From: a virus
Virus record (IMG/VR): IMGVR_UViG_3300045988_067909
Length of the DNA stretch: 64,000 bases
Strand: one strand, 5' to 3'
Positions within the stretch are counted from its first letter, which is position 1. The number at the start of each line of letters is the position of its first letter. Positions 7,538-59,488 of this stretch are shown piece by piece. The notes below the pieces were generated by a model. The model ran no database searches, was not told the DNA's origin, and saw only the letters and a program-made list of their open reading frames with translations. Made by a program: the position numbers and the translations under genes.

Positions 7538-8473
7538 ATGATCATATATTATGCAGATACACAGGATGGGCGGTTAGCTGCCCATCTAATACTTCAGAAC
7601 CCGGAGAAAGTTCTGATTGATGAAGAAAAAAGATTAGACCCTGAATATTGTCTATTAAATGACATTAATGATTCTAAGGATATTAAGCTTCTACCATATA
7701 TATTTAAACCTAATGCTACTGTATTAGATAGAGTCAATGAAGACGAAGCTATTATATGTGTCGGTATTGGGTTTAATATAAATAATGCGGTATCTTTACA
7801 CAGATTCAATGCAGTGGTGAATAAAGCTAGACGAGTGGTATTTATAGATTACTTACCAAAGTCTAAGCTTTTAATAGAGAAGTATAAAGATAACGATAAG
7901 ATAGACTTTCATTACTACGAGTACGAGTGTCTATCTAGTATTGTCTGGTATATCATTATGGGTAAGAATGAAAGCATTCCGCTTATCAATGGTATTAACC
8001 AATACACCCATAAGCCTATTCCTGATATTAAGGCTATCTATCAAAAGATGTATATAGCGACTTTATTTAGTGATCCTCAAGACGTTGTATGGGATAATCT
8101 CATGAACGAAACAGAAGAGGAAGCTAAGTATCGATATAAGACTATTGCATATGCATATGATTATATGAAACAACGATTACAGATTGATATTGACCGTGGA
8201 GTATACTATTCTTATATTGGAGATCTTAAAGTAAGATGTATGAGCGTTCAAGATGCTGAATATATTCCATCGGTCTTATATCATAAATCTTTAGTAACCA
8301 TAAACTGGATATATGATGGTGATAGCTATCTATATAAAGTTTATGCTGATTTTGATGATTTTAATTGTGCGGAATTTGCAGCTAAGTTTAACGGTACTGG
8401 AACGAAACACTATGGTGTGTTCAGATCGGATGACTTATTGCTATATCCACATAATAGATCTCGGAGGAACTGA
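7538..8473 (+). CDS. hypothetical protein
   Basis: 311-aa ORF with RBS ggagagaactgccATG. No family recognised. Confidence 0.45.
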   Translation: MIIYYADTQDGRLAAHLILQNPEKVLIDEEKRLDPEYCLLNDINDSKDIKLLPYIFKPNATVLDRVNEDEAIICVGIGFNINNAVSLHRFNAVVNKARRVVFIDYLPKSKLLIEKYKDNDKIDFHYYEYECLSSIVWYIIMGKNESIPLINGINQYTHKPIPDIKAIYQKMYIATLFSDPQDVVWDNLMNETEEEAKYRYKTIAYAYDYMKQRLQIDIDRGVYYSYIGDLKVRCMSVQDAEYIPSVLYHKSLVTINWIYDGDSYLYKVYADFDDFNCAEFAAKFNGTGTKHYGVFRSDDLLLYPHNRSRRN

Positions 8474-8916
8474 TGGCGAGAAAATTCCACTTAGTGTCCA
8501 CAGCACCTGAGGGCACATTACTACCAAAACGTTCAACTAAGCATTCTGCTGGTTATGACTTCTTCTCTCCTATAGATGCAGAAATCATGCCAGGTGCAAC
8601 TCTTAATATCCGTACAGATATTAAAGTTGAAATGAATGAAGATGAAGTACTATTCATTGCTCCACGTAGCAGTTATGGATACAAATATCAAATGGCGTTA
8701 ACAAATACTTTAGGTATCATCGATGCAGATTTCTATAACAATGAGACCAATGAAGGTAATATCAGTATCAAAATTAAAAACAATGGTACTGAACCTATGT
8801 ATTTGGTCAAAGATGAAGCATTCGCTCAAGGTATCTTTGTTAAGTATTTGACTACAGATGATGATGATGTAACTGAAGTACGTACTGGTGGTATTGGTAG
8901 CACTACTAAGAATTAA
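8473..8916 (+). CDS. dut: dUTP diphosphatase (dUTPase)
   Basis: dUTPase motifs are present: SAGYDFFSP (motif I/II), IAPRSSYGYKY (motif III), C-terminal RTGGIGSTTKN (motif V). Start overlaps the previous stop (ATGA). Confidence 0.85.
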   Translation: MARKFHLVSTAPEGTLLPKRSTKHSAGYDFFSPIDAEIMPGATLNIRTDIKVEMNEDEVLFIAPRSSYGYKYQMALTNTLGIIDADFYNNETNEGNISIKIKNNGTEPMYLVKDEAFAQGIFVKYLTTDDDDVTEVRTGGIGSTTKN

Positions 8917-13410: not shown

Positions 13411-13774
13411 CTCATCATACTCTCATTTAACCTAACACTACTGTAATAGCAGTGACAGCTGTCTATTACACCCTTATCTGGATTTAACGGTAGCCAGATT
13501 TGGTTGTTACTTCTTATATACCGTATATTATACAGGTGCCAGTATCTTAACAAACGGCCATGTTAGATACTCGTTGCAGTGTTTGCAGGTTTATTATTGT
13601 TTTCCTTGTTGCAATAATAGACAAAGTTTCCTCTTAATGGATTAGGGTAGTCCATAACCTACCCTAATACCATTACTCCTATTTACGTGATACCGTGCGG
13701 TATAATAAACTCCTTACTTAAACTAAAATAGCTTACCCAGTATAGACAGTGTCTATACTGGGTATTTGCCGTTT

Positions 13775-13846
13775 CGTAAAACTTAGTTTTTTCAGTTATA
13801 TACTATAATGGTAATATCATGGTTATATTATTTAGTTTACATATAG
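13775..13846 (+). promoter_or_regulatory. copy of conserved promoter-like repeat (CGTAAAAC...TTCAGTTATATACTATAATGGTAATATCATGGTTATAT)
   Basis: Member of a repeat family of at least 8 copies containing TATAAT. Positioned 15-25 nt upstream of a strong RBS and ATG. Confidence 0.45.
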
Positions 13847-14248: not shown

Positions 14249-14300
14249 AAGGCTAGAGGAATTTCCTCTAGCCTTAATCTATTTTATTTTTTTTTATTCA
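14249..14300. terminator. bidirectional terminator between convergent genes
   Basis: Hairpin aaggctagaggaatttcctctagcctt flanked by an A-run on one side and a T-run on the other. Convergent CDS ends at 14242 and 14294. Confidence 0.5.
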
Positions 14301-15013
14301 CGACGGGATATCTTCTTACCACTTAAAGTCAATGGTGTTACATTGCCAATATTGATTAAGTTAGTAGATAGATGTGCACCTAGCATATATACGTTAAGTA
14401 AGTTCTTACTCATAGGATCACTAGGGTCATCAGGGATATCATCTTGAGAGATATAACCCATAGTAGAGATAGTATTATACATAGCTTGTTTAGCTTCCAT
14501 GGAATCTGCACGTGCTCTGGATAACTCTTTAATAGTTGCATCCATGCCACTAACTACAAGAGATTCCATTTCTCTATCAGATGTAATACCATTCTTATCA
14601 TGAGAGATAAGCATACCTGTCTTATTATCACGCATAGCTATATTAGTAGAGATAGCGTTCTTTTTTGTCAAGAATTGTTTCATACGTTTTAGATGTAAGT
14701 ACCCAACTAATGCTTCATGAGATGTAGCACCATGACCATTCTCATCTGTATAGATATATGGCATTTCGACTTTCTCTAAGATAGGTACACCCATTACATC
14801 AGCAGCTTTCTCTACTTGGTCCATAGTTGGTTCAATCTCGAATACACGAGTGATAAATCTAAATGGATATTTACCAGATACAAACTTAGTAAACTCTTTA
14901 TCACTCATATCAGAGAATATCTTTTTATAATAGTCAGTAACTTTACCAGATGGATCCATAGCTAGCATTACATCAAATACTAGCTTTTCGGCTTTCTTTC
15001 TTTGTGGTGTCAT
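14294..15013 (-). CDS. hypothetical protein
   Basis: 239-aa ORF. RBS aggagg in ctaatctataggaggaactaaATG (reverse strand). Confidence 0.5.
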   Translation of the reverse strand: MTPQRKKAEKLVFDVMLAMDPSGKVTDYYKKIFSDMSDKEFTKFVSGKYPFRFITRVFEIEPTMDQVEKAADVMGVPILEKVEMPYIYTDENGHGATSHEALVGYLHLKRMKQFLTKKNAISTNIAMRDNKTGMLISHDKNGITSDREMESLVVSGMDATIKELSRARADSMEAKQAMYNTISTMGYISQDDIPDDPSDPMSKNLLNVYMLGAHLSTNLINIGNVTPLTLSGKKISRRE

Positions 15014-15023
15014 TTAGTTCCTC

Positions 15024-16214
15024 CTATAGATTAGAGAAGTGAATCATTAAAGCGAAATACATTAGAACGGAACGTTGGTAACTGGCTTTTGTAGCAGCAC
15101 GGTTCTTACGTACATGATAACGTCTAGAGCCATTCATTAACCATCGTTCTAAGATTTCCTTAGATCTGATTACTTCTTTGACTTTACTATTAGGTCTAGG
15201 TGCTGTAGTAAATCTTACAAACTCAACACGTTTAACGTCTTTCTTATCTGTGCTTTGGAAGAATAGATATACTAGAAGACTAATGAACTCTTTAACTTCA
15301 GTAAGAGACTTAGTATCATTCTTTAACACCCATTCTATGATAGCTTTGATTTCATCAGTAGATACATTAACGTCAGCTGCCATCTTACAGTAAGAATAGT
15401 TTACACCCATAGTACTAATAGCTTGAACTGTCTTATCAATTACACGTTCAGCCATAAGACTATCAGTATCAGCCAATCTATAGTTATCTTCACTATAGTC
15501 ATCACTAGCATAGTTAAGATATTCATTACGATTTTCAAATGCTTCATAATACAACGTAGCGATATTCTTCATGAATGATTTGATACGTGTATGCAATTGC
15601 TGTACGATATCTTTGATATCTTCATCATCAAAGTCTTCAAACTTATCTTGATATGTCTCAGCCCATGTTGTAGCAATAGAACGTATTGCACCAAATACAT
15701 TACCTTTGACTTTAAGATCGTATTTAGCAGACATCTTATTATTGACTACATAATCCATTACGTGTTTATACTCAATAGGCTGTACAACTTGGAATGAGCC
15801 ATAATGAATAGATGGATAGAAAGACCCAGAGAATGCTATATTAACTAATGATAGGTCTAATTCTTTATAGTATTTCTTTCTATTCATTAAGAAGTATCTA
15901 ACTATACATAGCATAGCTATAGTAGTCTCATCTTTAGCAGCAGCCGGGTTAAAAGACGGAATACTAAAATAGAAAGTATTCCGTAATTCTCTTTGGATGA
16001 CAGAACGTTGAATGCCTAGCATTCTGAAGAATTCATCTCTATCGTTATCAGTAAAGTAAATACGTCTATATGGTGCAATAGCATATAAGTCTTCAGCTCT
16101 AGCTGCAATGAATTTACTGATATATTGTTTATATTGGGAAACCCTTCTAGAGATAGCTTGCTCTATTAGAGGGTATATCTTCTTAAGTATAACTTCGTTA
16201 TCTTGCTTCATCAT
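15024..16214 (-). CDS. hypothetical protein
   Basis: Start taken at MMKQDNEV (16214), which has an aggagg RBS 5 nt upstream on the minus strand. The ORF track extends to 16280 without an RBS. Confidence 0.5.
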   Translation of the reverse strand: MMKQDNEVILKKIYPLIEQAISRRVSQYKQYISKFIAARAEDLYAIAPYRRIYFTDNDRDEFFRMLGIQRSVIQRELRNTFYFSIPSFNPAAAKDETTIAMLCIVRYFLMNRKKYYKELDLSLVNIAFSGSFYPSIHYGSFQVVQPIEYKHVMDYVVNNKMSAKYDLKVKGNVFGAIRSIATTWAETYQDKFEDFDDEDIKDIVQQLHTRIKSFMKNIATLYYEAFENRNEYLNYASDDYSEDNYRLADTDSLMAERVIDKTVQAISTMGVNYSYCKMAADVNVSTDEIKAIIEWVLKNDTKSLTEVKEFISLLVYLFFQSTDKKDVKRVEFVRFTTAPRPNSKVKEVIRSKEILERWLMNGSRRYHVRKNRAATKASYQRSVLMYFALMIHFSNL

Positions 16215-16279
16215 TATCCTCCTTGATTTTATTAAGATGTTTCCGTGAAACACTTTAATAAGCCAAGGAGGAATAAGCA

Positions 16280-17521
16280 ATGTTTATTTATAACGAACAG
16301 TATTTTGGTAAGACACCAAGTCTTATCAAACTAGAATCTATTATCGGAGATATCCGTAAACAAAAGTACAAGAATGATACAGTAGTCGAATCTAAAGAAC
16401 TAGCTAAAGTCATGAAGAATCAATTTGGTTTTGCTAATACTAATTTCTTAGTAGACTTCACTACAGCGAAGAATGCTTATACATTAGTATTCAGAGATAA
16501 ACTAAATGGTATGGGTAAACCTATCTTTAAGAATGGTACATACCAATTTAACCCAAAAGACGGTTATGATCTAAATGTATATTTCTCTTATGGTTTATTA
16601 TGTGATACTAGCTTTACTAATGAAGAGCTAGTAGCCATCTTATTGCATGAGATTGGTCATCATTTCAGTGCTAAAGCTGCTATGTATGAATACAATCTCC
16701 CTAGTATCAAGAACCTAGTTCGTGGTATGACTGATATGAATAAAGCTATCTATAATTTAACTAATGGTGCTAAAGAAGATATCCGTAATATTAGTGATGC
16801 TAATATAATGGCTGGTATCCAGCAAGCATTTAATGGTTTAGATTGTAGATCCGCTTTGGCTTATATTAATAACGGTGTAGTCTTAGTTAAAGATGCTATC
16901 TTAAATGGTAATATCTCAGATGCATTCAAATTCCTAACTGGTGATAAAACTGTAGTCAATAAAGTAATGAATACTAAGTTTGACCAATCAGTAAAGAATC
17001 TTGTTTCTGAATATGATTCCGAAGAAGAGAAGTCTGATGCATTTGCCACTATCTATGGTTATGGTCCTGCATTGACTACAGCATTGACTAAGTTAGAGTC
17101 TAATAAATTAGATACTAGACAAAGCACTACAGAATCTAATGTATTAGAATGGATTCTTAAGTTCTACGTTACATTTGGTATTATAGGTGTATTTGAATTC
17201 TTTATTGATTCAATGGCACATATTGATTCAAGTAAACGTACATTAGCAGCATTAGCTGTATTAAACCAAGAACTTAAGACAGCTAATCTTACACCTAAAC
17301 AACGTAAACGTATCCAGCAAGATATCATTGATATTACTAAAGATTATGAATCATATCTTGAAGCAAAACAGGCTTTATTTAAAAAGACTGGTTACGTTAA
17401 ACTAGCGTTCGTATATAATAAGATCTTATTCTTATACCATACTAAGTTTAATAGTGATAGAAACTTAGAATCCTATCAGCAACTATTGAACTTGTATAGA
17501 ATGGCTTCATCTAGATCCTAA
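16280..17521 (+). CDS. putative zinc metallopeptidase (HExxH motif)
   Basis: RBS aaggaggaataagcaATG. Motif AILLHEIGHHFSAKAAM contains HEIGH. Family not determined. Confidence 0.4.
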   Translation: MFIYNEQYFGKTPSLIKLESIIGDIRKQKYKNDTVVESKELAKVMKNQFGFANTNFLVDFTTAKNAYTLVFRDKLNGMGKPIFKNGTYQFNPKDGYDLNVYFSYGLLCDTSFTNEELVAILLHEIGHHFSAKAAMYEYNLPSIKNLVRGMTDMNKAIYNLTNGAKEDIRNISDANIMAGIQQAFNGLDCRSALAYINNGVVLVKDAILNGNISDAFKFLTGDKTVVNKVMNTKFDQSVKNLVSEYDSEEEKSDAFATIYGYGPALTTALTKLESNKLDTRQSTTESNVLEWILKFYVTFGIIGVFEFFIDSMAHIDSSKRTLAALAVLNQELKTANLTPKQRKRIQQDIIDITKDYESYLEAKQALFKKTGYVKLAFVYNKILFLYHTKFNSDRNLESYQQLLNLYRMASSRS

Positions 17522-17929
17522 CATATAAGTAGCTAAGATTTTTTCATTTGACTCCTAAATAACTAAATGTACTTACCTAGTAGAGCCCTAGTACGGATAT
17601 AATTTGTACTAGGGTTTTATTTGCCTTTTGTAAAAAATAAAATCATATAAACAATATAGTGATAGGTAGCACCTCGTATAATCTATAACTTATAAATCTA
17701 CCTATCAAGAGGCTTATATAGTTGATACTTTCAGTATAGTAGGCTATCTCATAACCATTCAATCCCTACTATACTTCCCTTCTAATCAACTATAAGGGTC
17801 AAGCGCTTCTTCAAGAGTTATCGAATTAACTCACTTTAAACACAACAAGAATACTCCATATAGGCATTGCCTGTATGGGGTTTTCTTGTGTTACCTATAC
17901 CACACTTATATAAAAAAGGAGGATAATTT

Positions 17930-18439
17930 ATGGAAATTGATGGAATGCCAGAAATTAAATTGAGCAGTGTGTCTGCTAAAAAAGCTGTATCTCCATTACG
18001 TGAAGAACAAGAACCACAGTTAACTGTATTCTTAGGTGGTACCTGTAATGGCTCTGTATGGAGAAATGATTTACTTAGAATGCTAACTGACAAGGTAAAA
18101 GCATTTAACCCTGTAGTGTCAGTATGGGATGAACGTGCTAAGTTCGAAGAGAAGTATCATCGTGACCATGATGATGTAAGACTATATTGTATTACACCAG
18201 CCATGTCAGGAGTATACTCTATTGCTGAAGTAGTAGATGATAGTAATAAGAGACCTGAAAATACCATACTATGCGTATTGTATAGTGACTTTGGTGGTGA
18301 TTTTACTTATACTAATCATCAATTAGCTTCTATGAAAGCCTTAATGGATTTAGTAGAGTCTAATGGTGTAAAAGTATTCGATAGCCTATATGATGTAGCA
18401 GTCTACTTAAATAACAGAGCTGAACATATAGCTAAATAA
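17930..18439 (+). CDS. hypothetical protein, possibly nucleoside 2-deoxyribosyltransferase-like fold
   Basis: RBS aaaggaggataatttATG. N-terminal VFLGGTCNGSVWRNDLL resembles the glycine-rich N-terminal motif of Rossmann-like deoxyribosyltransferase/DUF proteins. Weak evidence. Confidence 0.3.
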   Translation: MEIDGMPEIKLSSVSAKKAVSPLREEQEPQLTVFLGGTCNGSVWRNDLLRMLTDKVKAFNPVVSVWDERAKFEEKYHRDHDDVRLYCITPAMSGVYSIAEVVDDSNKRPENTILCVLYSDFGGDFTYTNHQLASMKALMDLVESNGVKVFDSLYDVAVYLNNRAEHIAK

Positions 18440-18461
18440 TTCATTTATGGAGGAAAAAATT

Positions 18462-18593
18462 ATGGCAGATAATAAATATGGCGTAATCAATGAAGTTGGT
18501 GACTTAGGATTAGGTTTCCAAGAGCTTAATGATAATGATCAAAAAGTGCTTCAAGAACAATTGAAGCAAGAACAAGACAAAGATAAAAAATAG
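18462..18593 (+). CDS. small acidic ORF (43 aa) missed by the >=60 aa ORF track
   Basis: Strong RBS tggaggaaaaaattATG. Translation: MADNKYGVINEVGDLGLGFQELNDNDQKVLQEQLKQEQDKDKK. Terminator immediately downstream. Confidence 0.3.
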   Translation: MADNKYGVINEVGDLGLGFQELNDNDQKVLQEQLKQEQDKDKK

Positions 18594-18602
18594 TTGTCTA
18601 AG

Positions 18603-18647
18603 ATATGTAGTAGAGCCTCTTATCGGTTCTACTACATATTTATTTTT
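18603..18647 (+). terminator. rho-independent terminator
   Basis: Hairpin atatgtagtagagcctcttatcggttctactacatat followed by ttattttttt. Confidence 0.5.
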
Positions 18648-18725
18648 TACACTCACTGTAACTGTATATTAATCAGACCCAATTGGGTTAATATAGGTTA
18701 CTTATTTTAATACGAGGTAATTATT

Positions 18726-19991
18726 ATGAAAGCAAAACTTATCGGTATTGGAGCTGCTGGTAATAAAGCAGCTATGCATGCTATTAACCAAGGTGTATTT
18801 GATCGTAAAGATGTTTTACTTTTGAATACAACTCAAAAAGATATGAAAGACGAATTCAACGATATTAATATCGTATTCGGTGATAACCGTGGTGGTTGCG
18901 GTAAAGAACGTGATATGGCTAAAGGATTAGCTATGGAAGCTTTACGTGCAGACCTATTCAAATTAGACTCTTTTCCAGATCCTCAAGATGAAGCTATTAT
19001 CATTGTATCTTCTTCCGAAGGTGGTACTGGTTGCGGTGCTTCTACTATTGTAGCTAAGTACTGTAAACAAGTATTGAAAATGAATGTACACATGTTCGTA
19101 TTCACTGGTTTCGAACAAGATGCTCGTGGTATCCAAAACACTGTAGAATACTTCCAAGAATTATCTGATGAATATACTGTACAAGCTATTAGTAATAAGA
19201 AATTCTTAGATGGTATCCGTAGCAAACAAGATGCTGAACGTGCGGCTAACCAAGAATTCACTCAACGTATGGCAGTTCTTCTTGGTCAAGACTTAGTAGA
19301 ATCTGATCAAAATATTGATGACACAGACTTATATAAATTGTCTACTACACCTGGTTTCATGACTATCGAAAAAGCTAAAGTTACTAGCATTAAGAATACA
19401 GAAGACTTGTATAAAGAACTTCGTAAAATGTTAGACTATAGCAAATCTTTGGAATTCAAGCCTACAGCTAAACGTATTGGTGTAATCTTTGGTCTAGTTC
19501 CTGCGGCTCAAAACATGGACTTGAATACTGATGTATTACGTGAACGTCTTGGTGAACCATATGAATTCTTCACTCATATTCAAGATGCTGAACCTGGTAA
19601 AGAGTTCATTGAATTCATTGCTTCTGGTATTAAAATGCCAATTGATGAAGTTAATAAAGCTTACCAAACTTACTTAGAACGCACTTCTAAAGTTGATAAA
19701 TCTAAAGACTCTTTCTTTGATGAAGCTTCTTCTATGACTATCAATAAAGAAGATGGTATGTTTAACTTTGATAAGACTGGTCCACAAAATATCTCCAAAG
19801 CAGATAAAGATGCATTCTTTGCTAGTTCCAAGCCTGTAGTTAAACCACGTGTAACTGTATCTGCTAAAGATGATTTCTTCAATCAAACTACAGAAAAGGT
19901 TACAGTATCTCCTACAGTTGAAGTTCCAGAAGAACCAGTTAAACCTAAACGTGTAATTATCACTAGCAATGGTATTACAAAAGACTATTAA
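18726..19991 (+). CDS. phuZ: tubulin/FtsZ-family GTPase, phage PhuZ/TubZ-like
   Basis: N-terminal GIGAAGNKAA (G1 GxGxxG box). Tubulin signature-like SSEGGTGCGAS (GGGTGSG). Overall size 421 aa with an extended C-terminus, as in phage tubulins. Confidence 0.8.
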   Translation: MKAKLIGIGAAGNKAAMHAINQGVFDRKDVLLLNTTQKDMKDEFNDINIVFGDNRGGCGKERDMAKGLAMEALRADLFKLDSFPDPQDEAIIIVSSSEGGTGCGASTIVAKYCKQVLKMNVHMFVFTGFEQDARGIQNTVEYFQELSDEYTVQAISNKKFLDGIRSKQDAERAANQEFTQRMAVLLGQDLVESDQNIDDTDLYKLSTTPGFMTIEKAKVTSIKNTEDLYKELRKMLDYSKSLEFKPTAKRIGVIFGLVPAAQNMDLNTDVLRERLGEPYEFFTHIQDAEPGKEFIEFIASGIKMPIDEVNKAYQTYLERTSKVDKSKDSFFDEASSMTINKEDGMFNFDKTGPQNISKADKDAFFASSKPVVKPRVTVSAKDDFFNQTTEKVTVSPTVEVPEEPVKPKRVIITSNGITKDY

Positions 19992-20015
19992 TCCTACCAA
20001 TATACGAGGTGACTT

Positions 20016-20942
20016 ATGAAGGGCATTTATTTTAATAACCTGAAGAATCCTGCATTAGATCCTATTGTAGATACGATGGAATTGAATATGCTATTAGATG
20101 ATCCTTCGGAAGCAGAAAAAGCAGAGATTAGAGATAACTTTGTTAACGAGGTTATGTCTAAAGGATATAATGAAGATGAACTTAAACTATTCATCTTTAA
20201 TAACTTCCATGAGTTCGTTAAATACTCTTATGAAGTTCCTGAAGTAGCTAAGCTTTGGGAAGAACGACCTATGGTTCCTAAGCTAATTAAACAACTGCTT
20301 ACTAAATATACTCCAGGGTTTAGTTTTAATAAGCTAGACCGCATCTATATAAATGGAGTAATCTATAACCATAACGTAGTACATCAGAATGATGAAGTAC
20401 CTGGTATGGTTACAGAAATACTTAATGATTTAGGTATGACAATCAATAAAGACGTATGTGAAATCTTAGACAGCATCTATTATCTTCCTAGACAGTTCTA
20501 TACTATGGCTGTAATAGCAAGATTCTCAGATGTACGTGAAGAAATCAATATTAGACGTATCTTGTTCTTATTGATGATTACCTATGAATATAACACTACC
20601 ACTGTAGATGATATCCGCATCATTCTTGAAGCGTTATTCTATGGTGAAATGACTCCATTGTTTATCATTAATATGCTAGATACTCATAGAAGTGAACAAT
20701 GGTACAACTATAGATATAGAGCGGCTGAAGAAGATACTACATTTGCTCTATATAGAATAGTAAATGCTATGCCTAAACACATTATCAAAGATACTTTGCT
20801 AAAATATAGTGAAGTCTGTGTAGCTAGACAACTCAAACTAGATGATGTGAAATGGACATTGGTAAACTTACCATTAGATGACTATAGAGAATTAGCTATT
20901 ATAGCTGATACTCTAAAGAACGATGGTTATTATTTACCATAA
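20016..20942 (+). CDS. hypothetical protein
   Basis: 308-aa ORF with RBS tacgaggtgacttATG. Confidence 0.45.
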   Translation: MKGIYFNNLKNPALDPIVDTMELNMLLDDPSEAEKAEIRDNFVNEVMSKGYNEDELKLFIFNNFHEFVKYSYEVPEVAKLWEERPMVPKLIKQLLTKYTPGFSFNKLDRIYINGVIYNHNVVHQNDEVPGMVTEILNDLGMTINKDVCEILDSIYYLPRQFYTMAVIARFSDVREEINIRRILFLLMITYEYNTTTVDDIRIILEALFYGEMTPLFIINMLDTHRSEQWYNYRYRAAEEDTTFALYRIVNAMPKHIIKDTLLKYSEVCVARQLKLDDVKWTLVNLPLDDYRELAIIADTLKNDGYYLP

Positions 20943-20944
20943 CA

Positions 20945-21300
20945 ACACAAAAAATAATACATGGGTAGAGAGGATGCCCTACCCATGTATATCTTTATCT
21001 ATACACCATATCTATGATATAGTCGCATGCGCCATAGTGGCACCATATGCTCTATTGGTGTATCTTTATCTGGTAAATGTTCACCAGACTCAGTACCAAC
21101 AGGTATAGATTCAGATGCTAGTCTTCTAGCTTCGAGCTCAGGAATCTGAGCGCAAAGCGAGAGGAGAAACTCTCTGCTCATAGGGGATTCACCTCCTTAT
21201 GACAAGTAGACATAAGTCTACAAGTGTATGGGTAAATTTAGATACGGCTATTGGTACTAGCTGTATCTACCATACACATTTATAGTATACAATCGTAAAA
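20945..21300 (-). repeat. copy 1 of a ~350-bp repeated cassette (promoter, structured leader, 60-aa ORF, terminator)
   Basis: High nucleotide identity to 21305-21715, and in inverted orientation to 47900-48290. Contains terminator catgggtag...ctacccatg and leader hairpins. Confidence 0.6.
20999..21181 (-). CDS. conserved small protein, cassette copy 1 (60 aa)
   Basis: MSREFLLSLCAQIPELEARRLASESIPVGTESGEHLPDKDTPIEHMVPLWRMRLYHRYGV. RBS aaggaggtgaatcccctATG. Paralogues at 21365-21547 and 48031-48228. Confidence 0.55.
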   Translation of the reverse strand: MSREFLLSLCAQIPELEARRLASESIPVGTESGEHLPDKDTPIEHMVPLWRMRLYHRYGV

Positions 21301-21304
21301 CAGT

Positions 21305-21715
21305 TTACATATAAAAAATAATACATGGGTAAGTGGGGATACACCTACCCATGATTATCTTTATCTATACCCCATATTTATGGTATAGTCGCATGCGCCA
21401 TAGTGGCACCATGTGAACTATTGGGGTATCTTTGTCTGGCATCCGTTCACCAGATACAGTACCTACTGGTATGGTTTCGGATGCCAGTCTTCTCGCTTCG
21501 AGCTCAGGGTTCTGAGCACAAAGAGAAAGAAGGACATCTCTTGTCATAGGGATTCACCTCCTTATGACTTATGGGTTATAGTCCCATAAGTGTATGGTTA
21601 TATTTAGATACAGCTACTACTAATAGCTGTATCTACCATACACGTTTATAGTATACAATCGTAAAACAGTTTACATACAGAAACTCCCATATAGGCAATG
21701 CCTATATGGGACTTC
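21305..21715 (-). repeat. copy 2 of the repeated cassette
   Basis: Tandem to copy 1. Same promoter-like TTGTATACTATAAA box, leader hairpins and terminator. One leader hairpin has a different sequence but preserved pairing. Confidence 0.6.
21365..21547 (-). CDS. conserved small protein, cassette copy 2 (60 aa)
   Basis: MTRDVLLSLCAQNPELEARRLASETIPVGTVSGERMPDKDTPIVHMVPLWRMRLYHKYGV. About 80% identical to copy 1. Confidence 0.55.
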   Translation of the reverse strand: MTRDVLLSLCAQNPELEARRLASETIPVGTVSGERMPDKDTPIVHMVPLWRMRLYHKYGV

Positions 21716-38532: not shown

Positions 38533-38569
38533 TACAGGTACTGGAATTTCCAGTACCTGTATATTTTTT
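38533..38569 (+). terminator. rho-independent terminator (second copy of the ACAGGTACTGGAAnTTCCAGTACCTGT family)
   Basis: Hairpin followed by atatttttta. Confidence 0.55.
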
Positions 38570-38574
38570 ATAAT

Positions 38575-38650
38575 CGTAAAACTCTTTTTTTTTAGTTGTA
38601 TACTATAATGGTAATATCATGGTTATATATTTATTAGTTAATTAGAAAGG
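38575..38650 (+). promoter_or_regulatory. conserved promoter-like repeat copy
   Basis: cgtaaaactctttttttttagttgtatactataatggtaatatcatggttatatat, followed by RBS aaaggag and ATG. Confidence 0.45.
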
Positions 38651-39237: not shown

Positions 39238-39264
39238 ATGATACTGAGGGTATAATGATAATAT

Positions 39265-39335
39265 CGTAAAACTGTTTTTTTAGTTGTATAATATAATGGT
39301 AATATCATGGTTATATATTTAGTTAATTAGAAAGG
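39265..39335 (+). promoter_or_regulatory. conserved promoter-like repeat copy
   Basis: cgtaaaactgtttttttagttgtataatataatggtaatatcatggttatatat. Confidence 0.45.
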
Positions 39336-42760: not shown

Positions 42761-42784
42761 TTACTAAGGGTATATTTGTAGTTT

Positions 42785-42855
42785 CGTAAAACTCAATTAT
42801 TTCAGTTATATACTATAATGGTAATATCATGGTTATATTATTTATTATACACAGG
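42785..42855 (+). promoter_or_regulatory. conserved promoter-like repeat copy
   Basis: cgtaaaactcaattatttcagttatatactataatggtaatatcatggttatattatt. Confidence 0.45.
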
Positions 42856-43348: not shown

Positions 43349-43420
43349 CGTAAAACTCTTTTTTTTAATTGTATACTATAATGGTAATATTCATGGTTAT
43401 ATATTTATTATTTATACAGA
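43349..43420 (+). promoter_or_regulatory. conserved promoter-like repeat copy
   Basis: cgtaaaactcttttttttaattgtatactataatggtaatattcatggttatatat. Confidence 0.45.
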
Positions 43421-44980: not shown

Positions 44981-45060
44981 TTATATACCTCCTGTGGAAT
45001 TAAAAAAAATATATTTATATTAGGGTGTGAACTCTATATTAAATTACAATGTGGTGATAT

Positions 45061-45140
45061 CGTAAAACTTGATTATTTCAGTTATATACTATAATGGTAA
45101 TACAATGGTTATATATTTATTTAGTTAATTAATCAAGGAG
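45061..45140 (+). promoter_or_regulatory. conserved promoter-like repeat copy
   Basis: cgtaaaacttgattatttcagttatatactataatggtaatacaatggttatatat. Confidence 0.45.
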
Positions 45141-47910: not shown

Positions 47911-48290
47911 ATAAGTAAACTGTTTTATGATTGCATACTATAATTGTGTATGGTAGATACAGCTAGTAACGTTAGCTGTATCTAAATATAACCATACACT
48001 TGTAGACATAAGTCTACGGGTCGAAAGGAGGTGACTCCTATGACTAGAGAACGAGAATCTATTCTCGCTATCTGTGCTCAGATTCCTGAGCTCGAAGCTA
48101 GAAGGCTAGCTTCTGAAAGCATCCCGGTTGGGACTGAATCTGGTGAAAGATTACCAGACAAAGATACTCCAATCGTCCACATGGTACCGCCATGGAGGAT
48201 GCGTCTATACCACAAATATGGGGTATAGATAAGGAGTATACATGGGTAAGGATATAGAACATTCTTACCCATGTATTATTTTTTATACTT
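47900..48290 (+). repeat. copy 3 (inverted orientation) of the repeated small-gene cassette
   Basis: Promoter-like gattgcatactataattgtgtatgg, leader hairpins agatacagctagtaacgttagctgtatct and gtagacataagtctac, ORF, and terminator catgggtaagg...cttacccatg. Matches the 20945-21715 cassettes in reverse complement. Confidence 0.6.
48031..48228 (+). CDS. conserved small protein, cassette copy 3 (65 aa)
   Basis: MTPMTRERESILAICAQIPELEARRLASESIPVGTESGERLPDKDTPIVHMVPPWRMRLYHKYGV. RBS aaaggaggtgactcctATG. Confidence 0.55.
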   Translation: MTPMTRERESILAICAQIPELEARRLASESIPVGTESGERLPDKDTPIVHMVPPWRMRLYHKYGV

Positions 48291-48312
48291 ATTTGTTAGT
48301 GATTTAGTAAAT

Positions 48313-48390
48313 CGTAAAACTTAGTATTTTCAGTTGTATAATATAGTGGTAATAGAATGGTTGTATTATTTAGTATTAATTGAAAAGGAG
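48313..48390 (+). promoter_or_regulatory. conserved promoter-like repeat copy (diverged)
   Basis: cgtaaaacttagtattttcagttgtataatatagtggtaatagaatggttgtattatt. Confidence 0.4.
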
Positions 48391-59354: not shown

Positions 59355-59488
59355 TATATATACCTCCTTCTTAATGAGTTGTTCAAGTATAGCAGTTTTA
59401 CAGGGTTTTTGTAAACCTGTTTTTTTTTTGATTGTATATTATAACTGTATACATAATTGGTTATATTTAATTTAAGGAGGAAACAATT

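What the first reader, a model, noticed from the sequence alone, without database searches (positions are those of the whole stretch)
18462..19991. Phage tubulin (PhuZ/TubZ-like) with a tightly linked upstream 43-aa acidic ORF
The 421-aa protein has the tubulin/FtsZ G-box GIGAAGNKAA and T4-loop SSEGGTGCGAS. PhuZ-type tubulins centre the replication compartment of nucleus-forming jumbo phages, and TubZ-type tubulins segregate phage or plasmid DNA.

A short ORF with an excellent RBS (MADNKYGVINEVGDLGLGFQELNDNDQKVLQEQLKQEQDKDKK) sits 130 nt upstream with its own terminator. It is not in the ORF track. It could be an unannotated partner or regulator.

No obvious nuclear-shell (chimallin) gene was recognised in this window.
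Basis: partly seen in the sequence, partly recalled or inferred. Interest (0 to 1): 0.65.

Follow-up and report, generated by a model that had tools for sequence, protein, structure and literature searches.

The report
Divergent tubulin operon in oral jumbo phage
A very abundant ~265-kb phage from the human mouth encodes a real but uncharacterised kind of tubulin, made together with an unknown 300-aa partner protein and preceded by a genuine 43-aa gene, in a phage lineage whose cultured relatives lack the protein "nucleus" that phage tubulins are known to position.

Summary
ORF 18726-19991 is a tubulin/FtsZ-superfamily GTPase: it passes the Pfam PF00091 cutoff, has invariant T1, T4 and T7 motifs, and gives a confident two-domain model. 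The 43-aa ORF (18462-18593) is a real gene. It is intact with a strong RBS in every clade sampled, and within-clade pN/pS is 0.09-0.16.

The PhuZ label is not supported. The protein has no PhuZ C-terminal domain, and hhalign gives 3.8% probability to phiKZ PhuZ. The closest known relative is phage c-st TubZ (96.7%, with the same GCGKER loop). FtsZ and CetZ are about equally close by fold.

The family is discrete and known only from metagenomes, with about 150 clusters at 50% identity. By RNAP beta, terminase and gene order, the phage is nearest to the chimallin-less AR9/PBS1 group. No chimallin was found in about 208 kb sampled of its ~265-kb genome.

A conserved terminator separates the small ORF from the tubulin. 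The better partner candidate is the all-alpha ~300-aa gene that starts 14-30 nt after the tubulin stop in all clades. The tubulin tail carries 3-4 conserved DxFF motifs.

Best reading: a new variant of phage cytoskeletal tubulin whose cellular role is still open.

The parts
18462..18593 (+). Small ORF encoding a 43-aa acidic protein. Conserved core is [IV][IL]xE[IVQ]GD[LMF]G[LC]G, followed by a charged helix.
   Evidence: GGAGG at 18449-18453 lies 8 nt upstream of the ATG. The ORF is intact at 41-50 aa, with a Shine-Dalgarno sequence, in every clade. Within-clade pN/pS is 0.09-0.16 in 5 clades. An HMM of the family finds it directly upstream of the tubulin in the divergent contig L119 (E 8e-7) and not in tubulin-less AR9-like loci. 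It has no Pfam or PHROG match and no match in cultured phages.
18601..18641 (+). Intrinsic terminator that closes the transcription unit ending with the small ORF.
   Evidence: A 17-bp stem with 5 GC pairs plus a T-run. A hairpin plus T-run follows the small ORF in nearly all clades, with different stem sequences in each.
18663..18694 (+). Promoter-like two-box element (TGTATATTA ... AATTGGGTTAATAT) upstream of the tubulin. This is inferred.
   Evidence: It resembles the recurrent intergenic elements of this phage, such as the one at 59432-59466 and the GTATACTATAATGG...TGGTTATAT family. This is sequence resemblance only and has not been tested.
18726..19991 (+). Tubulin/FtsZ-superfamily GTPase, 421 aa. 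The globular core is residues 1-325 and the disordered tail is residues 326-421.
   Evidence: PF00091 scores 40.1 bits against a cutoff of 33. The AF2 model has pLDDT 80 and pTM 0.79. Foldseek target-normalised TM is 0.76-0.80 to CetZ, c-st TubZ and FtsZ. hhalign gives c-st TubZ 96.7%, E. coli FtsZ 94.5% and phiKZ PhuZ 3.8%.
18744..18773 (+). T1 loop / G-box, GIGAAGNKAA (residues 7-16).
   Evidence: G9 is invariant and I6, G7, A10-A15 are at least 90% conserved across 35 family members.
18894..18911 (+). GCGKER loop (residues 57-62), a family signature shared with phage c-st TubZ.
   Evidence: G57, C58, K60 and E61 are invariant. c-st TubZ has GCGKERKKA at the aligned position. phiKZ PhuZ has GMGKDRK and E. 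coli FtsZ has GLGAGANP.
19011..19043 (+). T4 loop / tubulin signature, SSEGGTGCGAS (residues 96-106).
   Evidence: S96, E98, G99, G100, G102 and G104 are invariant.
19311..19328 (+). T7 'synergy' loop, N196-I-D198-D-T-D201. It would supply the catalytic acidic residues to the GTP of the next subunit in a filament.
   Evidence: N196, D198 and D201 are invariant. The motif lies immediately before helix 199-207 and strand 210-218 of the model. It is 41-44 residues after the T6 Asn157, the same spacing as in FtsZ (established knowledge of FtsZ N165/D209/D212).
19701..19988 (+). Disordered C-terminal tail carrying four acidic-aromatic short motifs: DSFF (19707-19718), DGMF (19752-19763), DAFF (19809-19820) and DDFF (19869-19880), plus a terminal Tyr.
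   Evidence: D328, F330 and F364 are invariant; D343 and F346 are at least 90% conserved. 89 of 91 distinct family tubulins have at least one [DE]x[FM]F motif in the tail, and most have 2-4. The tail is disordered in the model except for helix 358-367 (pLDDT 72-80).
20016..20942 (+). p308, an all-alpha ~300-aa protein co-operonic with the tubulin. It is the candidate partner or adaptor.
   Evidence: It starts 24 nt after the tubulin stop. A homologous 284-308-aa ORF starts 14-30 nt after the tubulin stop in 46 of 48 distinct versions (jackhmmer E<=1e-67). Identity between clades is only 17-26%. It has no Pfam or PHROG match. The AF2 model has 19 helices and pLDDT 59.5. There is no significant fold match, and it is unrelated to TubY.
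20957..20990 (.). Perfect 12-bp-arm hairpin just after p308, a probable end of the tubulin-p308 unit.
   Evidence: In clade L063 a canonical terminator follows the p308-like gene at the same place.

Best explanation
ORF 18726-19991 encodes a GTP-dependent, filament-forming tubulin of a distinct phage family.

Shown:
- The protein has the complete tubulin/FtsZ two-domain fold.
- It has invariant nucleotide-binding loops (T1, T4) and an invariant NxDxxD T7 loop. The T7 loop is the element that activates GTP hydrolysis only in a polymer.
- The gene forms a conserved two-gene unit with an all-alpha ~300-aa protein (p308), which starts a few nucleotides after its stop codon.
- In at least two distant clades the unit is bounded by terminators.
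- The unit sits in the replication/transcription gene block (gyrase, virion RNAP subunit, UvsX, nvRNAP beta, ligase) of a very abundant ~265-kb oral jumbo myovirus related to the AR9/PBS1 group.
- The 43-aa ORF is a real protein-coding gene under purifying selection. It is always just upstream, but it ends the preceding transcription unit.

Inferred:
- The protein polymerises head-to-tail with GTP into dynamic filaments during infection.
- Its long disordered tail, with 3-4 conserved DxFF motifs, is a multivalent docking region. It would bind either neighbouring subunits, as the PhuZ and TubZ tails do, or the co-expressed p308 adaptor, coupling the filament to a cargo.
- The most likely job is spatial organisation of phage DNA replication or virion assembly inside the cell, without a chimallin shell.
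For: Superfamily membership and active-site completeness.

A distinct family of its own:
- No match in 50,697 cultured-phage records apart from c-st TubZ at E=3.
- 154 representatives at E<=1e-30, then a score gap.
- Found in only 4 MAGs among 185,579 species genomes.

Closest known relative is c-st TubZ: (out-group proteins carry weak TubZ_C_3 signals).

Operon with p308.

Transcript boundaries.

Tail motifs.

Small ORF is real.

Phage lineage:
- RNAP beta is about 30% identical to AR9, PBS1, SA1, S6 and phiR1-37, against 21-24% to Chimalliviridae.
- The large terminase is 31-36% identical to the same group.
- The UvsX-nvRNAP beta-ligase and gyrA-g078 gene orders are shared with it.
- PBS1, PALS_2 and phiR1-37 encode msRNAPs but no chimallin (PMC10299810).

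No chimallin in about 208 kb sampled.
Against: - No biochemical or cytological data exist for any member of the family. Polymerisation, the tail's role and the cargo are all inference.
- p308 has no recognisable fold or domain, so calling it an adaptor rests only on operon structure.
- About 20% of the genome was not sampled. Four proteins of 547-785 aa remain unannotated, so a very divergent shell protein cannot be excluded.
- Sun et al. 2025 (PMC12625630) report low-GC oral phages carrying both chimallin and 'PhuZ'. I could not check whether this phage is among them.
- Two family members sit in apparently bacterial contexts (L121), so the family is not strictly viral.
Confidence: 0.55

Rival explanations
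1. It is functionally a PhuZ. The phage does build a chimallin-type (or analogous) nucleus, and the tubulin centres or rotates it. The shell gene would lie in the unsampled ~20% of the genome, or be too divergent for the models used.
For: - phrog_4733 'tubulin PhuZ' is the best PHROG match, though weak (E 1e-6).
- The phage encodes phiKZ-type multisubunit RNAPs and a GroEL-like chaperonin. These features correlate phyletically with tubulin in jumbo phages (PMC7824862).
- Sun et al. report chimallin+PhuZ phages of 200-324 kb, GC 27-59%, enriched in the human mouth.
- Four proteins of 547-785 aa remain unannotated.
Against: - No hit to PF25677, phrog_4795, phiKZ gp54 or solved chimallins in about 208 kb sampled.
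- By three independent markers the nearest cultured relatives are the chimallin-less AR9/PBS1/PALS_2 group.
- The tubulin itself fails every PhuZ-specific sequence test.
Confidence: 0.12
2. It is a TubZ-type (type III) partition motor that segregates the phage genome as an episome during a carrier or pseudolysogenic state. p308 and/or the 43-aa protein would replace TubR/TubY as the DNA adaptor.
For: - Phage c-st TubZ is the closest known relative (hhalign 96.7%, identical GCGKER loop).
- Foldseek target-normalised TM to c-st TubZ is 0.77-0.80.
- The layout (small upstream gene, tubulin, ~240-300-aa downstream gene) mirrors tubR-tubZ-tubY in c-st.
- From memory only, not checked here: AR9/PBS1-type phages are known for pseudolysogeny.
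Against: - No HTH or winged-helix domain was detected in either neighbour.
- 43 aa is too small for a TubR fold.
- p308 is unrelated to TubY (0.3%).
- No iteron or centromere array lies near the operon.
- The small ORF is separated from the tubulin by a terminator.
- In most clades a lysin gene sits between the two.
Confidence: 0.15
3. It is an FtsZ mimic aimed at the host. It would co-polymerise with or poison host FtsZ, or sequester FtsZ-binding proteins, to block cell division during infection.
For: - The best sequence-level PDB hits are FtsZs (profile E 2e-12).
- The T5 (FTGFExDxRG) and T7 (NxDxxD) motifs are FtsZ-like.
- Automatic annotation calls family members 'cell division GTPase FtsZ'.
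Against: - Identity to FtsZ is only about 20%.
- The Pfam FtsZ_C domain is not matched.
- The tail lacks the FtsZ C-terminal D-I-P-x-F-L peptide. This is read directly from the sequence.
- The T3-equivalent loop is TubZ-like, not FtsZ-like.
- Known phage division inhibitors are small peptides, not tubulins (established knowledge: lambda Kil, T7 gp0.4).
Confidence: 0.08
4. The 43-aa protein is a direct regulator of the tubulin polymer. For example, it could cap or sequester subunits, as the 40-aa peptide MciZ caps FtsZ.
For: - It is present in every clade that has the tubulin.
- It stays next to the tubulin side after upstream rearrangements in the window species, and it is directly adjacent in two separate lineages, the window species and L119.
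- It is absent from tubulin-less AR9-like relatives and from the bacterial-context homologue L121.
- Its size and its predicted strand-plus-helix composition are compatible with a capping peptide. This rests on analogy to established knowledge of MciZ.
Against: - It ends the upstream unit, which carries the virion RNAP subunit, and a conserved terminator separates it from the tubulin.
- A lysin gene intervenes in most clades.
- The co-occurrence could simply reflect the lineage-wide synteny of the whole block.
- There is no sequence similarity to MciZ or to any known family.
Confidence: 0.15

Closest known systems
TubZ of Clostridium botulinum phage c-st (PDB 3V3T/4XCQ; tubR-tubZ-tubY partition system)
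   Same: - Best profile-level relative: hhalign 96.7%, E 3e-10, 255 aligned columns across both domains.
- Identical GCGKER loop.
- Foldseek target-normalised TM 0.77-0.80.
- Phage-encoded.
- Flanked by a small upstream gene and a mid-size downstream gene.
   Different: - Only about 24% identity.
- No TubR-like DNA-binding protein, no TubY and no centromere repeats.
- The host genome is a lytic-type jumbo myovirus, not a plasmid-prophage.
- The tail is long and acidic-aromatic with repeated DxFF motifs.
PhuZ of nucleus-forming Chimalliviridae (phiKZ gp39, 201phi2-1 gp59)
   Same: - A tubulin-fold GTPase encoded by a jumbo phage with multisubunit RNAPs.
- It has an extended C-terminal tail. In PhuZ the tail mediates polymerisation (established knowledge).
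- A degenerate version of the same loop is present (GMGKDRK).
   Different: - hhalign probability is 3.8%.
- PF22334 is not matched, against 128 bits for PhuZ.
- No PhuZ appears among PDB sequence hits at E<=10.
- BFVD PhuZ-type models score only TM 0.61-0.67 at 12-14% identity.
- No chimallin was detected in about 208 kb of the genome, and the phage lineage is AR9-like.
Bacterial FtsZ
   Same: - Best single-sequence and profile PDB hits.
- FtsZ-like T5 (FxFEGxxR-type) and T7 (NxDxxD) motifs.
- hhalign 94.5% to E. coli FtsZ.
- Target-normalised TM about 0.76.
   Different: - About 20% identity.
- No FtsZ_C Pfam domain.
- No C-terminal FtsA/ZipA-binding peptide.
- A different T3-equivalent loop.
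- Phage operon context instead of the dcw cluster.
Archaeal CetZ (PDB 4B45/4B46)
   Same: Top structural matches: Foldseek E 6e-20 to 7e-19, target-normalised TM 0.76-0.80. Sequence E is about 1e-7.
   Different: 18-19% identity. CetZ is an archaeal cell-shape protein with no phage or operon parallel. The resemblance is at the level of the shared superfamily fold.
MciZ (40-aa FtsZ capping peptide of Bacillus subtilis), as an analogue for the 43-aa ORF only
   Same: A very small protein encoded in a system with a tubulin-family polymer, of comparable size.
   Different: There is no sequence similarity. No interaction has been tested. This is an analogy recalled from established knowledge, not a finding.

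Membership tests
Tubulin/FtsZ superfamily | GTPase domain matching Pfam PF00091 above the gathering threshold | tested here: met
   40.1 bits against a cutoff of 33, residues 4-161.
Tubulin/FtsZ superfamily | T1 GxGxxG and T4 GGTGxG nucleotide-binding signatures | tested here: met
   GIGAAGN (residues 7-13) and EGGTGCG (residues 98-104). Both are invariant or nearly invariant in 35 members.
Tubulin/FtsZ superfamily | T7 loop acidic residues that complete the active site of the neighbouring subunit | tested here: met
   N196, D198 and D201 are invariant and lie before H8 in the model.
Tubulin/FtsZ superfamily | Two-domain fold: Rossmann-like GTPase domain plus C-terminal activation domain | tested here: met
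   AF2 pTM is 0.79 and residues 1-325 are confident. 913 PDB matches have E<=1e-3, and all 50 listed are FtsZ, CetZ or TubZ.
PhuZ (Chimalliviridae spindle tubulin) | PhuZ-type C-terminal domain (Pfam PF22334 TubZ_C_2) | tested here: not met
   No hit at E<=0.1. phiKZ PhuZ scores 128 bits.
PhuZ (Chimalliviridae spindle tubulin) | Profile-level sequence similarity to PhuZ | tested here: not met
   hhalign 3.8% to phiKZ PhuZ. No PhuZ chain appears in hmmsearch against PDB at E<=10. phrog_4733 gives only E 1e-6, against 4.6e-118 for phiKZ PhuZ.
PhuZ (Chimalliviridae spindle tubulin) | Encoded by a genome that also encodes the nuclear shell protein chimallin | tested here: inconclusive
   No chimallin was found by PF25677, phrog_4795, phmmer with phiKZ gp54 or PDB sequences in about 208 kb of non-redundant sequence from a 260-268-kb genome. 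About 20% of the genome is unsampled. The nearest cultured relatives lack chimallin.
PhuZ (Chimalliviridae spindle tubulin) | C-terminal tail that inserts into the next subunit to drive three-stranded filament assembly | not testable with these tools
   A long tail with conserved acidic-aromatic motifs exists. Its contacts cannot be determined here.
TubZRC type III partition system | TubZ-type tubulin | tested here: inconclusive
   The closest known relative is c-st TubZ (96.7%), but no TubZ C-terminal Pfam family is matched. Only out-group proteins below the family boundary show weak PF22340 signals.
TubZRC type III partition system | TubR winged-helix centromere-binding adaptor encoded upstream | tested here: not met
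   The upstream gene is 43 aa with no HTH and no family match. It is separated from the tubulin by a terminator.
TubZRC type III partition system | Centromere (tubC/tubS) iteron array next to the operon | tested here: not met
   Only chance two-copy short repeats occur in 17450-18760 and 19950-21000. No tandem array is found apart from the strain-specific 366-nt element.
TubZRC type III partition system | TubY-like modulator downstream (c-st type) | tested here: not met
   The p308 family profile against c-st TubY gives 0.3% probability.
FtsZ | FtsZ C-terminal domain (Pfam PF12327) and conserved C-terminal peptide | tested here: not met
   PF12327 is not among the hits at E<=0.1. The tail has DxFF motifs and no D-I-P-x-F-L peptide.
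FtsZ | Cellular division-gene context | tested here: not met
   The gene lies in a phage replication/transcription block in all phage loci.

The most novel reading that the evidence does not exclude
A tubulin-based cytoskeletal module operates in an abundant human-oral jumbo phage lineage that has no chimallin nucleus. The module would consist of the filament-forming GTPase with its multivalent DxFF tail, a dedicated all-alpha partner, and possibly a 43-aa modulator.

If so, tubulin-driven organisation of phage infection is not confined to nucleus-forming Chimalliviridae. This family would position a different kind of cargo (a shell-less replication factory, capsids or an episome) through a previously unknown adaptor.
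Probability: 0.35. Interest if true: 0.65.

Novelty: new variant of a known kind. Interest (0 to 1): 0.5.

Why it matters
Phage tubulins are so far understood through two paradigms: PhuZ spindles that position the chimallin nucleus, and TubZ motors that partition prophage-plasmids through TubR and a centromere. This family fits neither.

It is large (about 150 clusters at 50% identity) and belongs to one of the most frequently assembled jumbo phages of the human mouth. It has its own conserved partner gene and an unusual multivalent tail.

If its host really lacks a chimallin shell, it offers a tractable case for asking what a cytoskeleton does for a phage without a nucleus, and how tubulin tails recruit cargo. 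It also warns that metagenomic surveys which count 'PhuZ' by loose HMM hits may be merging distinct tubulin families.

Tried and rejected
1. Nucleotide and protein searches of cultured phages for the tubulin and for the 43-aa protein found nothing useful.
2. Rfam searches found nothing at gathering threshold in the window. The p308-uvsX repeat region gave only sub-threshold noise.
3. The exact 25-nt promoter probe against viral contigs hit almost only positions inside the window, so it added little genome sequence.
The permitted shallow alignment gave only pLDDT 59.5, and the fold search returned no significant match. p308's fold remains unassigned.
5. p308 as TubY: rejected.
6. p408 as a chimallin candidate, because it lies upstream of RNAP beta as chimallin does in phiKZ: rejected. 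It is a UvsX-like recombinase.
7. The 763-aa protein beyond the window edge as chimallin: rejected. It is the large terminase.
8. The L094 598-aa ORF as chimallin: rejected. It is a YadA-like adhesin.
9. The 366-nt tandem element as a centromere for the tubulin: rejected. Other clades lack it, with only about 100 nt between the p308-like gene and uvsX.
10. The small ORF as a mere leader peptide for the terminator: considered unlikely. The peptide sequence is under purifying selection, and the distance from stop codon to hairpin varies from 7 to 33 nt between clades.
11. The supplements of Sun et al. 2025 are not held, so I could not check whether this phage is in their chimallin+PhuZ set.
Full report
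**Observation**

The window contains ORF 18726..19991 (+, 421 aa) with GAGG 8 nt upstream. It also contains a small ORF whose mechanical limits are 18447..18593. GGAGG at 18449-18453 lies 8 nt before the ATG at 18462, and homologues start at the same Met. GIGAAGNKAA is residues 7-16 and SSEGGTGCGAS is residues 96-106. A 17-bp-stem terminator with a T-run lies at 18601-18641.

**What the large protein is**

- **Superfamily membership.** It passes the Pfam threshold for the tubulin/FtsZ GTPase domain, with 40.1 bits against a cutoff of 33.
- **Conserved residues.** A 35-member family alignment (A1) shows these invariant positions:
  - T1 (G9);
  - a GCGKER loop (G57, C58, K60, E61);
  - T4 (S96, E98, G99, G100, G102, G104);
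  - an FtsZ-like T5 (F126, G128, F129, E130, D132, R134, G135);
  - T6 N157;
  - an NxDxxD T7 loop (N196, D198, D201).
- **Structure.** The AlphaFold model is confident over residues 1-325 (pLDDT mostly 90 or above, pTM 0.79). It places the T7 motif just before helix H8.
- **Conclusion.** The elements needed for GTP binding and for polymer-dependent hydrolysis are all present.

**Which kind of tubulin**

| Comparison | Result |
|---|---|
| Family profile vs PDB sequences | FtsZ E 2e-12; CetZ 1e-7; phage c-st TubZ 3e-6; no PhuZ and no B. thuringiensis TubZ even at E<=10 |
| Fold (Foldseek, target-normalised TM) | CetZ 0.76-0.80; c-st TubZ 0.77-0.80; S. aureus FtsZ about 0.76; PhuZ not in the top 50 |
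| BFVD PhuZ-type models | TM 0.61-0.67, 12-14% identity |
| hhalign, family vs c-st TubZ | 96.7% over 255 columns spanning both domains |
| hhalign, family vs E. coli FtsZ | 94.5% |
| hhalign, family vs phiKZ PhuZ | 3.8% |

- The GCGKER loop is identical in c-st TubZ. It is GMGKDRK in PhuZ and GLGAGANP in FtsZ.
- phiKZ PhuZ scores 128 bits on the PhuZ-specific C-terminal model PF22334. The window protein does not match it.
- The protein is therefore not a PhuZ by any sequence test. Its nearest known relative is the c-st type of TubZ, at about 24% identity.

**A family of its own**

- There is no relative in 50,697 cultured-phage records.
- The large protein database holds more than 1,000 relatives, many on contigs of 230-310 kb.
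- The exhaustive profile search finds 154 representatives (50% clustering) at E<=1e-30. A score gap follows, and then a few ~380-aa proteins with weak TubZ-type signals.
- Among 185,579 species-representative genomes, the family occurs in only four MAGs.
- One BFVD/UniProt member is auto-annotated 'Cell division protein'.

**The C-terminal tail**

- After the last core helix the protein has about 95 disordered residues. They carry DSFF, DGMF, DAFF and DDFF motifs and a terminal Tyr.
- D328, F330 and F364 are invariant; D343 and F346 are at least 90% conserved.
- 89 of 91 distinct family members have at least one [DE]x[FM]F motif in the tail, and most have 2-4.
- The segment around DAFF is predicted helical, with pLDDT 72-80 inside an otherwise disordered tail.
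- I read this as a multivalent docking region. That is an inference.

**The small ORF**

- **Presence.** tblastn, inspection and an HMM find it in every clade sampled, down to tubulins only 43-48% identical.
- **Form.** It is always 41-50 aa with a strong Shine-Dalgarno sequence. It has a core ...E[IVQ]GD[LMF]G[LC]G... and a charged helix.
- **Selection.** Within-clade pN/pS is 0.09-0.16 in five clades, so it is a real protein-coding gene.
- **Distribution.** It has no match to any family or cultured phage. It is not found in tubulin-less AR9-like relatives.
- **Insulation from the tubulin.** A hairpin plus T-run follows it in nearly all clades, with different stem sequences. In most clades a membrane-anchored glucosaminidase gene also lies between it and the tubulin.
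- **Position.** Elsewhere it follows a virion-RNAP subunit gene (p239, phrog_3233).
- **Conclusion.** It closes the upstream unit. Its link to the tubulin is positional, and a functional link is untested.

**The better partner candidate**

- The ORF downstream of the tubulin (20016..20942, 308 aa) has a homologue in every clade (jackhmmer E<=1e-67). It starts 14-30 nt after the tubulin stop in 46 of 48 distinct versions.
- It evolves fast, at 17-26% identity between clades.
- It has no family match and is predicted all-alpha, with 19 helices and pLDDT 59.5.
- It has no significant structural neighbour and is unrelated to TubY.
- In clade L063 a terminator follows it. In the window a perfect hairpin at 20957-20990 does.

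**What phage this is**

- **Genome content.** The window encodes gyrase B and A, a phiKZ/AR9-type split RNAP beta, UvsX, an NAD-dependent ligase, SbcC, a split family-B polymerase and a tail sheath.
- **Size and abundance.** The genome is 260-268 kb and is assembled very often. One window protein is indexed in 1,336 collection blocks.
- **Nearest cultured relatives.**
  - RNAP beta is about 30% identical to AR9, PBS1, SA1, S6, LPJP1 and phiR1-37, against 21-24% to Chimalliviridae.
  - The large terminase is 31-36% identical to the same group.
  - The gyrA-g078 and UvsX-nvRNAP beta-ligase gene orders are shared with it.
  - Prichard et al. use PBS1, PALS_2 and phiR1-37 as the phages that encode msRNAPs but no chimallin (PMC10299810).
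- **Tubulin module in the relatives.** In the loci examined, those cultured relatives lack the tubulin, p308 and the small ORF.

**Chimallin hunt**

- Nothing in the window resembles chimallin.
- I extended 10 kb beyond each edge and found DnaB, PIF1 and the large terminase.
- I then used a dispersed repeat as a probe to sample other genome regions. This brought the non-redundant total to about 208 kb.
- Every ORF of 500-900 aa was tested against PF25677 and/or phrog_4795. All novel ORFs of 250 aa or more from the probe loci were tested against phiKZ gp54 by phmmer. Four unannotated proteins were compared with PDB sequences. None hit.
- About 20% of the genome was not sampled, and a very divergent shell protein could be missed, so I rate the chimallin test inconclusive but leaning negative.
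- Sun et al. 2025 report oral chimallin+PhuZ phages. I could not check for overlap because the supplements are not held.

**TubZRC test**

The locus has no TubR-like protein, no TubY and no iteron array next to the operon. It is not a canonical type III partition locus.

**Mechanism**

- **Shown:** a catalytically complete tubulin-fold GTPase, its conserved two-gene unit with p308, the transcript boundaries, and the conserved tail motifs.
- **Inferred:** GTP-dependent head-to-tail polymerisation; a tail that binds either the neighbouring subunit or p308; and the coupling of filaments to a cargo. The cargo could be the phage replication factory, capsids or an episome, in a phage that probably lacks a chimallin shell.
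- **Rivals:** hidden nucleus with PhuZ-like function (0.12), TubZ-like partition (0.15), and host FtsZ interference (0.08). Separately, the 43-aa protein as a polymer regulator is rated 0.15.

**Verdict**

This is a real and well-conserved feature. It is a new variant of a known kind (phage tubulin) with an unknown partner and tail architecture, in an unexpected phage lineage. Interest is moderate at 0.5. It would rise if the absence of chimallin and the p308-tail interaction were confirmed.

Noticed in passing
window 20949-21677 (+); related core at 47973-47997 (-): A 366-nt unit is tandemly duplicated (83-85% identity) between p308 and uvsX. It contains strong hairpins on both strands and a TGGTTATAT promoter-like box. 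The p308-uvsX gap is 481, about 860 or 1276 nt in different strains, so copy number appears to vary from 1 to 3. A 25-nt core from the unit (GTATGGTTATATTTAGATACAGCTA) gives five separate stretches on the 267-kb contig. There is no credible Rfam match. It could be a small mobile element or an sRNA/terminator module.
   Followed up: partly
window 13763-13841, 38563-38641, 39251-39329, 42773-42851, 45049-45127, 48301-48379 (+): A ~79-nt element (cgtaaaact...GT[TG]TATA[CA]TATAATGGTAATATCATGGTTATAT) is repeated six times, with a near-copy around 43370-43400. It lies upstream of small genes with strong RBSs. It looks like the phage's own strong promoter class, probably early, and is loosely reminiscent of the AR9 early promoter A(A/G)ATATATATTAT.
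   Followed up: partly
L094:6427-8220 and L094:8287-11013 (another fragment of the same phage population): Two YadA-like trimeric autotransporter adhesin proteins with head, stalk and anchor domains, one of which also has an SLH domain. That combination is typical of Negativicutes such as Veillonella and hints at the host. A 97%-identical tubulin contig was instead binned into a Solobacterium MAG (L118).
   Followed up: partly
L121:2288-3457 (Acidaminococcaceae MAG) and L120: A 42%-identical member of the tubulin family sits in an apparently bacterial context. It lies next to a Wzi capsule-assembly gene, a 435-aa putative lipoprotein and a 955-aa protein with an actin/Hsp70-like DIGGGSTD motif. 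The small ORF, p308 and the phage genes are all absent there.
   Followed up: partly
window 17930-18439 (+): The nucleoside 2-deoxyribosyltransferase-like gene just upstream of the small ORF is only 72-75% identical between strains whose flanking genes are 91-98% identical. The more distant clades show no tblastn match to it. It is a local hotspot of replacement or diversification.
   Followed up: no
window 14294-16280 (-): The genes for the virion-RNAP subunit fragment (p239) and its partner p418 are inverted relative to all other clades. In Staphylococcus phage SA1 and in AR9 the two are fused into one gene (g078-like).
   Followed up: partly
window 61065-63842 (-): A 925-aa protein with BspA-type leucine-rich repeats. 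Its gene contains many diverged internal DNA repeats of 60-150 nt (61078-62428), suggesting a rapidly evolving repeat region in a surface or host-interaction protein.
   Followed up: no
window 8473-8916 (+); L124:17976-18888: The phage encodes a dUTPase, which argues against uracil-containing DNA of the kind its AR9/PBS1 relatives have. In one strain the dUTPase gene is interrupted by an HNH endonuclease insertion.
   Followed up: no
L146:1551-3422: A GroEL/Cpn60-like chaperonin gene elsewhere in the same phage genome. HSP60 has been noted to co-occur with tubulin and multisubunit RNAPs in jumbo phages (PMC7824862).
   Followed up: no
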